64,000 nt of DNA, from assembly GCF_055900595.2 (NCBI RefSeq), contig NZ_CM148325.1. The stretch is one strand, 5' to 3'. Below are positions 52,572 to 52,595 of the stretch, in pieces (position 1 is the stretch's first letter; every line of letters starts with the position of its first letter). The notes beneath the pieces were generated by a model, which was not told the origin of the DNA, did not search any database, and saw only the letters and a program-made list of their open reading frames with translations. A program made the translations under genes and the position numbers.

Positions 52572-52595
52572 ATACGTTTAGACATCCAGATAGCT
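52572..52595 (-). promoter_or_regulatory. Candidate MetJ operator (three tandem 8-bp metbox-like repeats) upstream of metA
   Basis: Minus strand reads AGCTATCT GGATGTCT AAACGTAT, each 5-6/8 matches to the AGACGTCT metbox, 28-50 bp upstream of the metA start. Confidence 0.35.

What the first reader, a model, noticed from the sequence alone, without database searches (positions are those of the whole stretch)
52572..52595. Degenerate tandem metboxes upstream of metA
Three contiguous 8-bp repeats on the minus strand (AGCTATCT GGATGTCT AAACGTAT) resemble MetJ operators 28-50 bp upstream of the metA start codon, consistent with methionine repression of metA.
Basis: partly seen in the sequence, partly recalled or inferred. 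Interest (0 to 1): 0.2.

Follow-up and report, generated by a model that had tools for sequence, protein, structure and literature searches.

The report
Known MetJ operator of E. coli metA

Summary
The window is E. coli chromosome (rrn, yjaA, yjaB, then metA, aceBAK, metH). A fourth contiguous box, AAGCGTAT at 52571-52564, completes the array. This 32-bp string is the metA operator listed for E. coli K-12 by Augustus & Spicer 2011 (4 metboxes, 27.16 bits, 19 nt before the ATG).

With their weight matrix I get 27.14 bits. It is the best array in the 64 kb window, and none of 300 shuffles reach even the 3-box score.

An array sits at the same place upstream of metA in 63 of 65 gammaproteobacterial species and in 0 of 15 species from lineages without MetJ. 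Across 22 enterobacterial genera the boxes are 77-95% conserved, against 40-65% for flanking DNA.

The array starts one base after a conserved sigma-70-like promoter (-35 TCGACA, -10 TATCTT). SAM-bound MetJ would therefore block RNA polymerase. A conserved MetR-like site lies further upstream.

Verdict: real, correctly interpreted, undercounted by one box, and already known. One small extra: three O111-type E. coli genomes carry a 5-box allele.

The parts
52588..52595 (-). metbox 1, AGCTATCT (5/8 to AGACGTCT; 6.70 bits)
   Evidence: Listed in the published K-12 metA operator. Mean identity 0.77 across 22 genera.
52580..52587 (-). metbox 2, GGATGTCT (6/8; 8.96 bits)
   Evidence: Mean identity 0.89 across 22 genera.
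52572..52579 (-). metbox 3, AAACGTAT (6/8; 8.11 bits)
   Evidence: Mean identity 0.95 across 22 genera.
52564..52571 (-). metbox 4, AAGCGTAT (5/8; 3.37 bits, just above the 3.145 threshold).
   Evidence: The orthologous box is AAACGTAT or AAATGGAT in most genera, mean identity 0.90. This unit is duplicated in three E. coli genomes.
52597..52602 (-). predicted sigma-70 -10 hexamer TATCTT. The metbox array begins one base downstream of it.
   Evidence: Consensus scan. Mean identity 0.95 across 22 genera. Transcription start not verified here.
52620..52625 (-). predicted sigma-70 -35 hexamer TCGACA, 17-nt spacer to the -10
   Evidence: Mean identity 0.97 across 22 genera, with CTCGACAT nearly invariant.
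52642..52654 (-). MetR-like activator site TGAAACTTTCTCA (one mismatch to TGAA-N5-TTCA), centred about 58 nt upstream of the predicted start
   Evidence: Mean identity 0.88 across 22 genera; most read TGAAACATTTTCA. Published MetR consensus is ATGAA-N5-TTCAT. metA is stated to be MetR-regulated. The match is not significant on the E. coli sequence alone.
52555..52558 (-). Shine-Dalgarno GAGG, 10 nt before the ATG
   Evidence: Read from the sequence. A GAGG block is conserved in alignment A2.
51615..52544 (-). metA coding sequence (309 aa, homoserine O-succinyltransferase), the regulated gene
   Evidence: ORF list. RefSeq annotation of identical DNA.

Best explanation
This is the MetJ operator of the E. 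coli metA promoter. It consists of four contiguous, in-phase 8-bp metboxes (52595-52564, minus strand) that start one base after the -10 hexamer and cover the predicted transcription start and early transcribed region.

When methionine, and hence S-adenosylmethionine (SAM), is plentiful, one SAM-bound MetJ dimer binds each box. Neighbouring dimers contact each other, so the array is occupied cooperatively even though every box is degenerate. The bound array occupies the DNA that RNA polymerase needs for open-complex formation at the main promoter, and metA transcription falls. When SAM drops, MetJ leaves. MetR with homocysteine, bound at the conserved TGAA-N5-TTCA site about 58 nt upstream, then helps the weak promoter fire.

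Shown here: the array, its statistics, its conservation, its position relative to the conserved promoter hexamers, and the presence of metJ in the species.

Inferred or taken from established knowledge: physical binding, cooperativity, the exact start site and the occlusion step.
For: - Identity to the published operator: the E. coli K-12 b4013 metA entry reads 'agctatctggatgtctaaacgtataagcgtat', 4 boxes, 27.16 bits, 19 nt from the start. The window equals K-12 across this region.
- My re-scoring with the published matrix gives 27.14 bits. Every box is above the 3.145-bit threshold and the flanking octamers are strongly negative.
- It is the best array in the window, and 0 of 300 shuffles reach even the 3-box score. 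By consensus matching alone, 22/32 is reached in 1 of 300 shuffles.
- Positive control: the K-12 metJ/metB intergenic region gives 31.18 bits, against the published 31.2.
- Phylogenetic footprint: 63 of 65 gammaproteobacterial metA genes carry an array, mostly 3-5 boxes and 15-27 nt before the ATG. None of 15 metA genes from alphaproteobacteria, Actinobacteria or Clostridia does. MetJ exists only in five gammaproteobacterial orders.
- Across 22 enterobacterial genera the boxes are 0.77-0.95 identical, against 0.40-0.65 for the non-motif flanking segments between and outside the conserved motifs.
- The conserved -35 TCGACA and -10 TATCTT lie immediately upstream of the array.
- metJ is present in 5425 of 5426 complete E. 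coli genomes.
- Literature: MetJ binds tandem metboxes with consensus AGACGTCT, and functional repression needs at least two adjacent boxes. metA is regulated by MetJ and MetR. Enterobacterial metA is marked as experimentally tested by lacZ reporter and gel shift.
Against: - No binding or expression experiment can be run here.
- The numerical repression ratio and the gel-shift lane for Ec.metA are in figures that I could not read.
- The transcription start is predicted, not mapped. The original mapping papers (Michaeli 1984, Biran 1995) and the genome-wide start-site tables I tried were not available.
- Box 4 in E. coli only just passes the threshold (3.37 against 3.145 bits), so its occupancy in vivo is uncertain.
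- The matrix was seeded with known E. coli metboxes, including metA, so that score is slightly circular. The consensus-only and conservation tests do not share this problem.
Confidence: 0.95

Rival explanations
1. Chance resemblance: an AT-rich intergenic region that happens to contain octamers loosely like AGACGTCT, with no function.
For: Each box matches the consensus at only 5-6 of 8 positions. By consensus matching alone, a 17/24 three-box match occurs somewhere in 9% of shuffled 64 kb windows. A chance-level 2-box array does occur inside yjbB at 36659-36674.
Against: The four-box array is reached in 1 of 300 shuffles by consensus matching and 0 of 300 by matrix score. The array sits at the orthologous position in 63 of 65 MetJ-lineage species and in 0 of 15 others. 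The boxes are far better conserved than their flanks. In 637 kb of real DNA, no array of three or more boxes occurs away from metA.
Confidence: 0.01
2. The repeats act at the RNA level, as a structured 5' leader of metA mRNA (riboswitch, thermosensor or sRNA target), rather than as a DNA operator.
For: The array probably lies within the transcribed leader of the main promoter, and palindromic boxes can pair. The minimum-free-energy fold includes a small hairpin formed by the two CGUAU units.
Against: No Rfam family matches at E<=1 in 52300-52900 on either strand. The leader folds no better than shuffles: -9.2 kcal/mol, z = +0.59, with 142 of 200 shuffles at least as stable. The conservation pattern follows the 8-bp metbox register and allows whole-box insertions and deletions, which fits a protein-binding array and not a helix.
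Confidence: 0.02
3. The conserved block is the site of a different regulator (for example MetR or another factor), or it mainly controls the divergent gene yjaB.
For: The 156-bp intergenic region is shared with yjaB, and metboxes are palindromic, so strand does not matter. A second conserved element, the MetR-like site, does exist in the region.
Against: The MetR-like motif is a separate block 47 nt upstream of the array (52654-52642). The array matches the MetJ matrix in 8-bp phase and tracks the taxonomic distribution of MetJ. The array lies 106-137 nt from the yjaB ATG but abuts the metA -10 hexamer.
Confidence: 0.02

Closest known systems
metA operator of E. coli K-12 MG1655/W3110 (b4013), as listed in Augustus & Spicer 2011, BMC Genomics 12:558, Table S1
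   Same: The 32-bp sequence, the number of boxes (4), the score (27.16 against my 27.14 bits) and the distance to the ATG (19 nt) are all the same. The window equals K-12 from the -35 hexamer to the ATG.
   Different: Nothing within the operator differs. There are two SNPs further upstream in the intergenic region.
metJ/metB (metBL) shared operator of E. coli
   Same: A tandem in-phase array of four degenerate metboxes close to a met-gene promoter. My scan recovers it as a positive control at 31.18 bits (published value 31.2).
   Different: It serves two divergent met promoters and scores higher. The metA array serves metA, and its fourth box is weak.
metF (up to 5 boxes) and metC (2 boxes) operators of E. 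coli
   Same: The same architecture of contiguous 8-bp boxes overlapping promoter elements. At metF the boxes overlap the -10 hexamer, and RNA polymerase occlusion has been proposed.
   Different: The number of boxes differs and so, presumably, does the strength of repression. At metA the array starts just after the -10 hexamer rather than on it.
Orthologous metA operators in other Enterobacterales, Vibrionales-related and Alteromonadales species
   Same: The position (mostly 15-27 nt before the ATG), the 8-bp phase and the GGATGTCT/AGAAGTCT plus AAACGTAT core are shared.
   Different: Box number varies from 2 to 5 by whole units. Xenorhabdus species retain only two boxes. Thorsellia, Alteromonas and Psychrosphaera place the array 62-86 nt upstream.

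Membership tests
MetJ operator (tandem metbox array) | Two or more contiguous 8-bp units, in phase and without spacers, resembling the palindrome AGACGTCT | tested here: met
   Four contiguous units at 52595-52564 match at 5/8, 6/8, 6/8 and 5/8. In-register flanking octamers score -6 to -28 bits.
MetJ operator (tandem metbox array) | Passes the published information-matrix thresholds: each box at least 1/4 of the consensus score and the array at least the consensus score of 12.58 bits | tested here: met
   Box scores are 6.70, 8.96, 8.11 and 3.37, each above 3.145. The total is 27.14, above 12.58. It is the top array in the window and 0 of 300 shuffles reach it.
MetJ operator (tandem metbox array) | Located in the promoter region of a methionine-related gene, typically within about 75 bp of the translation start | tested here: met
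   The array ends 19 nt before the metA ATG and begins 1 nt after the conserved predicted -10 hexamer TATCTT.
MetJ operator (tandem metbox array) | Conserved at the orthologous gene in MetJ-bearing lineages and absent where MetJ is absent | tested here: met
   63 of 65 gammaproteobacterial metA genes against 0 of 15 non-gammaproteobacterial ones. Boxes are 0.77-0.95 identical against 0.40-0.65 for the non-motif flanking segments. 64 arrays lie next to metA against 6 two-box arrays elsewhere in 637 kb.
MetJ operator (tandem metbox array) | The cognate repressor gene metJ is present in the same genome | tested here: met
   metJ is not inside the 64 kb window. It is present in 5425 of 5426 complete E. 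coli genomes, and the same number of genomes, 5425 of 5426, carry this metA region.
MetJ operator (tandem metbox array) | Direct SAM-dependent binding of MetJ to the DNA, and derepression of the gene in a metJ mutant | not testable with these tools
   Literature only. The known E. coli genes were tested by lacZ fusion in wild type against a metJ deletion and by gel shift, and enterobacterial metA is marked as tested. The value for Ec.metA is in a figure I could not read.
MetR (LysR-type) activator site | Palindrome ATGAA-N5-TTCAT upstream of the -35 hexamer of a MetR-activated gene | tested here: inconclusive
   E. coli has TGAAACTTTCTCA at 52654-52642, one core mismatch. Such matches are as common as chance in the window (34 observed, 30.4 expected). 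However, the block is 0.88 identical across 22 genera and is a perfect TGAA-N5-TTCA in most of them.
Sigma-70 promoter (main metA promoter) | -35 and -10 hexamers with a 16-18 nt spacer, and a mapped transcription start | tested here: inconclusive
   TCGACA, 17 nt, TATCTT matches 9 of 12 consensus positions; 0.4 such hits are expected by chance in the region. Both hexamers are at least 0.95 conserved. The start site was not verified because mapping data were unavailable.

The most novel reading that the evidence does not exclude
The number of metboxes at metA is an evolvable dial. Because boxes 3 and 4 are near-identical direct repeats (AAACGTAT and AAGCGTAT), replication slippage adds or removes whole 8-bp units. 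This is seen between genera (2-5 boxes) and inside E. coli, where three O111-type genomes carry a 5-box allele. Such changes could measurably retune methionine repression of metA in particular lineages. The evidence here shows the polymorphism but not any phenotypic effect.
Probability: 0.3. Interest if true: 0.25.

Novelty: already known. Interest (0 to 1): 0.08.

Why it matters
metA encodes the first committed step of methionine synthesis, and its repression by MetJ-SAM is a textbook feedback circuit. Confirming the site adds no new biology. It does show that the first-stage reader can recognise degenerate operators from sequence alone, and it corrects the box count from three to four. In practice, this operator is what strain engineers remove to deregulate methionine production. 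The whole-box copy-number variation, including a rare 5-box E. coli allele, is a small natural experiment on how operator length sets repression strength.

Tried and rejected
Papers and data I could not obtain:
- The original mapping and binding papers are not held in the library: Michaeli 1984 (PMC215834), Marincs 2006, Thomason 2015 and Nonaka 2006.
- I searched genome-wide start-site supplements for metA or for coordinates near 4,212,25x / 4,214,23x: Mendoza-Vargas 2009, Kim 2012, Cho 2014, Conway 2014 and Ettwiller 2016. Nothing was found, probably because the large tables were cut when stored.
- Text searches for 'metA promoter' and 'metAp1/2' returned irrelevant papers such as those on methionine aminopeptidase.
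My recollection that Michaeli et al. mapped a methionine-repressible major start next to this repeat, and that Biran et al. reported rpoH-dependent induction, is memory only.

Hypotheses tested and rejected:
- RNA element: no Rfam hit and no excess folding stability.
- A second array at 36659-36674: it lies inside the yjbB coding sequence and occurs at the chance rate.
- The E. coli MetR-like motif as significant on its own: it is not. Only its conservation supports it.

Full report
**What the window is.** A 401-bp stretch around the finding matches 5425 of 5426 complete E. coli genomes, several at 100% identity. RefSeq annotation of an identical strain gives the local order, in metA orientation: 23S and 5S rRNA, yjaA, yjaB (divergent), metA, aceB, aceA. 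In the window, metA is the 309-aa ORF at 52544..51615 on the minus strand. yjaB is at 52701..53144 on the plus strand, which leaves a 156-bp intergenic region at 52545-52700. The window is identical to K-12 MG1655 from the -35 hexamer to the ATG, with only two SNPs further upstream. K-12 coordinates therefore follow as 4,214,280 + (52544 - w).

**The observation.** The minus strand reads ...TATCTT C AGCTATCT GGATGTCT AAACGTAT AAGCGTAT GTAGTGAGGTAATCAGGTT ATG. They match AGACGTCT at 5, 6 and 6 of 8 positions. A fourth in-phase box, AAGCGTAT at 52571-52564 (5/8), was missed.

**Comparison with the published operator.** Augustus & Spicer 2011 (PMC3228920) give a MetJ information matrix. Their Table S1 lists for E. 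coli K-12 b4013 metA the string 'agctatctggatgtctaaacgtataagcgtat' with 4 boxes, 27.16 bits, 19 nt from the start. Rescoring the window with that matrix gives 6.70, 8.96, 8.11 and 3.37 bits, 27.14 in total. The in-register octamers on either side score -6 to -28 bits, so the array has exactly four boxes. Box 4 only just clears the per-box threshold of 3.145 bits.

**Is it more than chance?**
- A scan of the whole window with the published rule finds two arrays. One is this array, which scores best. The other is a 2-box, 14.82-bit array at 36659-36674.
- 300 dinucleotide-preserving shuffles give 0.64 arrays per window.
- The matrix was seeded with known E. coli sites, so I repeated the test with plain consensus matching. 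At 17/24 the three boxes are the window maximum, but 9% of shuffles reach that somewhere. At 22/32 the four boxes are matched in 1 of 300 shuffles.
- The second array lies inside the yjbB coding sequence and is best read as chance.
- As a positive control, the K-12 metJ/metB intergenic region gives 31.18 bits against the published 31.2.
- metH is also in the window (37845..41549) and has no array upstream. This agrees with the published statement that E. coli metH has no metboxes.

**Comparative evidence.** I scanned one genome per species for a degenerate pattern encoding the MetA N-terminus, MPIR(V/I)PD(E/Q)LPA, and obtained 80 loci.
- 63 of 65 gammaproteobacterial loci have a metbox array upstream of metA. 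Most have 3-5 boxes ending 15-27 nt before the ATG.
- None of the 15 loci from alphaproteobacteria, Actinobacteria or Clostridia has one. MetJ homologues exist only in five gammaproteobacterial orders.
- The two exceptions are Xenorhabdus species. They keep two homologous boxes just under the total-score threshold.
- Over all 637 kb fetched, 64 arrays lie within 130 nt upstream of metA. Only 6 lie elsewhere, and all six are 2-box arrays.

An alignment of 22 enterobacterial genera (A2) shows discrete conserved blocks.

| Block | Mean identity |
|---|---|
| TGAA-N5-TTCA element | 0.88 |
| -35 TCGACA | 0.97 |
| -10 TATCTT | 0.95 |
| Box 1 | 0.77 |
| Box 2 | 0.89 |
| Box 3 | 0.95 |
| Box 4 | 0.90 |
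| Non-motif flanking segments | 0.40-0.65 |

A GAGG Shine-Dalgarno block is also conserved. Length differences between genera are whole 8-bp units, as in Brenneria, Dickeya and Leminorella. That is the signature of a phased protein-binding array.

**Mechanism.** The promoter scan finds one sigma-70-like site on the metA strand: TCGACA (52625-52620), a 17-nt spacer, then TATCTT (52602-52597). Both hexamers are conserved. The array starts one base after the -10 hexamer, so it covers roughly -6 to +26 relative to a start predicted near 52590.

Established knowledge (and my own) is that one SAM-bound MetJ dimer binds each metbox. Adjacent dimers bind cooperatively, and at least two boxes are needed for repression. 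A filled array here would exclude RNA polymerase; the same logic has been proposed for metF.

The upstream conserved TGAAACTTTCTCA (52654-52642) fits the MetR consensus ATGAA-N5-TTCAT, and metA is reported to be MetR-regulated. On the E. coli sequence alone this motif is not significant. It is supported only by its conservation.

metJ itself is outside the window but present in 5425 of 5426 E. coli genomes. Binding, cooperativity and the start site are inferred, not shown here.

**Rivals.**
- An RNA-level element is unlikely. There is no Rfam match and the leader folds no better than shuffles (z = +0.59).
- Chance is excluded by the conservation data.
- A role centred on yjaB or on another regulator is not supported by the geometry or by the taxonomic distribution.

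**What could not be done.** The S1-mapping paper (Michaeli 1984), the heat-shock paper (Biran 1995), Marincs 2006 and several start-site datasets were unavailable or cut when stored. The reporter and gel-shift results for Ec.metA in Augustus & Spicer are in figures. The text shows only that enterobacterial metA was among the genes tested.

**Population variation.** The 86 bp from the -35 hexamer to the ATG are identical in 3623 of 5425 genomes, and the rest differ by 1-4 bases. Sampled variants include the following:
- A to G at position 1 of box 1, a tolerated change.
- G to A at position 1 of box 2, towards the consensus.
- T to C at position 6 of box 3, a weakening change.

Three genomes (95NR1, 95JB1 and O111:H8 strain 8B) carry an exact 8-bp duplication of box 4, which gives a 5-box operator. 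This allele is not in the stored part of the published table.

**Verdict.** The operator has four boxes rather than three. The feature is already known, and interest is low.

Noticed in passing
window 52564-52571; loci L126 (NZ_CP021339.1, strain 95NR1) 112-135: Three of 5426 complete E. coli genomes (95NR1, 95JB1 and O111:H8 strain 8B) have an exact in-register 8-bp duplication of box 4 (AAGCGTAT AAGCGTAT), giving a 5-box metA operator. It is not in the stored part of the published metbox table.
   Followed up: partly
loci L002-L081 (metA upstream regions); alignment A2: The number of metboxes at metA varies from 2 to 5 between genera, always by whole 8-bp AAACGTAT-type units. Brenneria, Dickeya and Symbiopectobacterium have 5. 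Xenorhabdus has 2, and two of its species fall below threshold. Thorsellia, Alteromonas and Psychrosphaera place the array 62-86 nt upstream.
   Followed up: partly
window 52642-52654 (minus strand): The MetR-like element TGAAACTTTCTCA lies about 58 nt upstream of the predicted start. It is 0.88 identical across 22 genera, where it is mostly a perfect TGAA-N5-TTCA. It is not statistically distinguishable from chance in E. coli alone.
   Followed up: partly
window 36659-36674: A second, 2-box metbox-like array (TGACATCCAGATGTTT, 14.82 bits) lies inside the yjbB coding sequence. About 0.64 such arrays are expected per shuffled window, so it is probably chance.
   Followed up: yes
window 37845-41549 (minus strand) and upstream 41550-41690: metH is in the window and has no metbox array upstream. 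This matches the published statement that E. coli metH lacks metboxes and is controlled indirectly through MetR.
   Followed up: partly
L014 (Morganella psychrotolerans), about 3.8 kb downstream of the metA ATG: A strong 2-box array, AGACGTTCAGACGTCT (21.08 bits), lies away from metA. It may belong to another MetJ-regulated gene. I did not examine the context.
   Followed up: no
RefSeq annotation of metA (L001, L122, L123-L126): The same protein family is named 'homoserine O-acetyltransferase MetA' in many E. coli RefSeq records but 'homoserine O-succinyltransferase' in K-12 and strain ET82. This is an annotation inconsistency.
   Followed up: no
NZ_CP027555.1 (strain 2013C-3513), hit H27: The metA operator region aligns over 56 nt rather than the usual 55, which suggests a 1-bp indel within or next to the array. 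It could be real or an assembly error.
   Followed up: no
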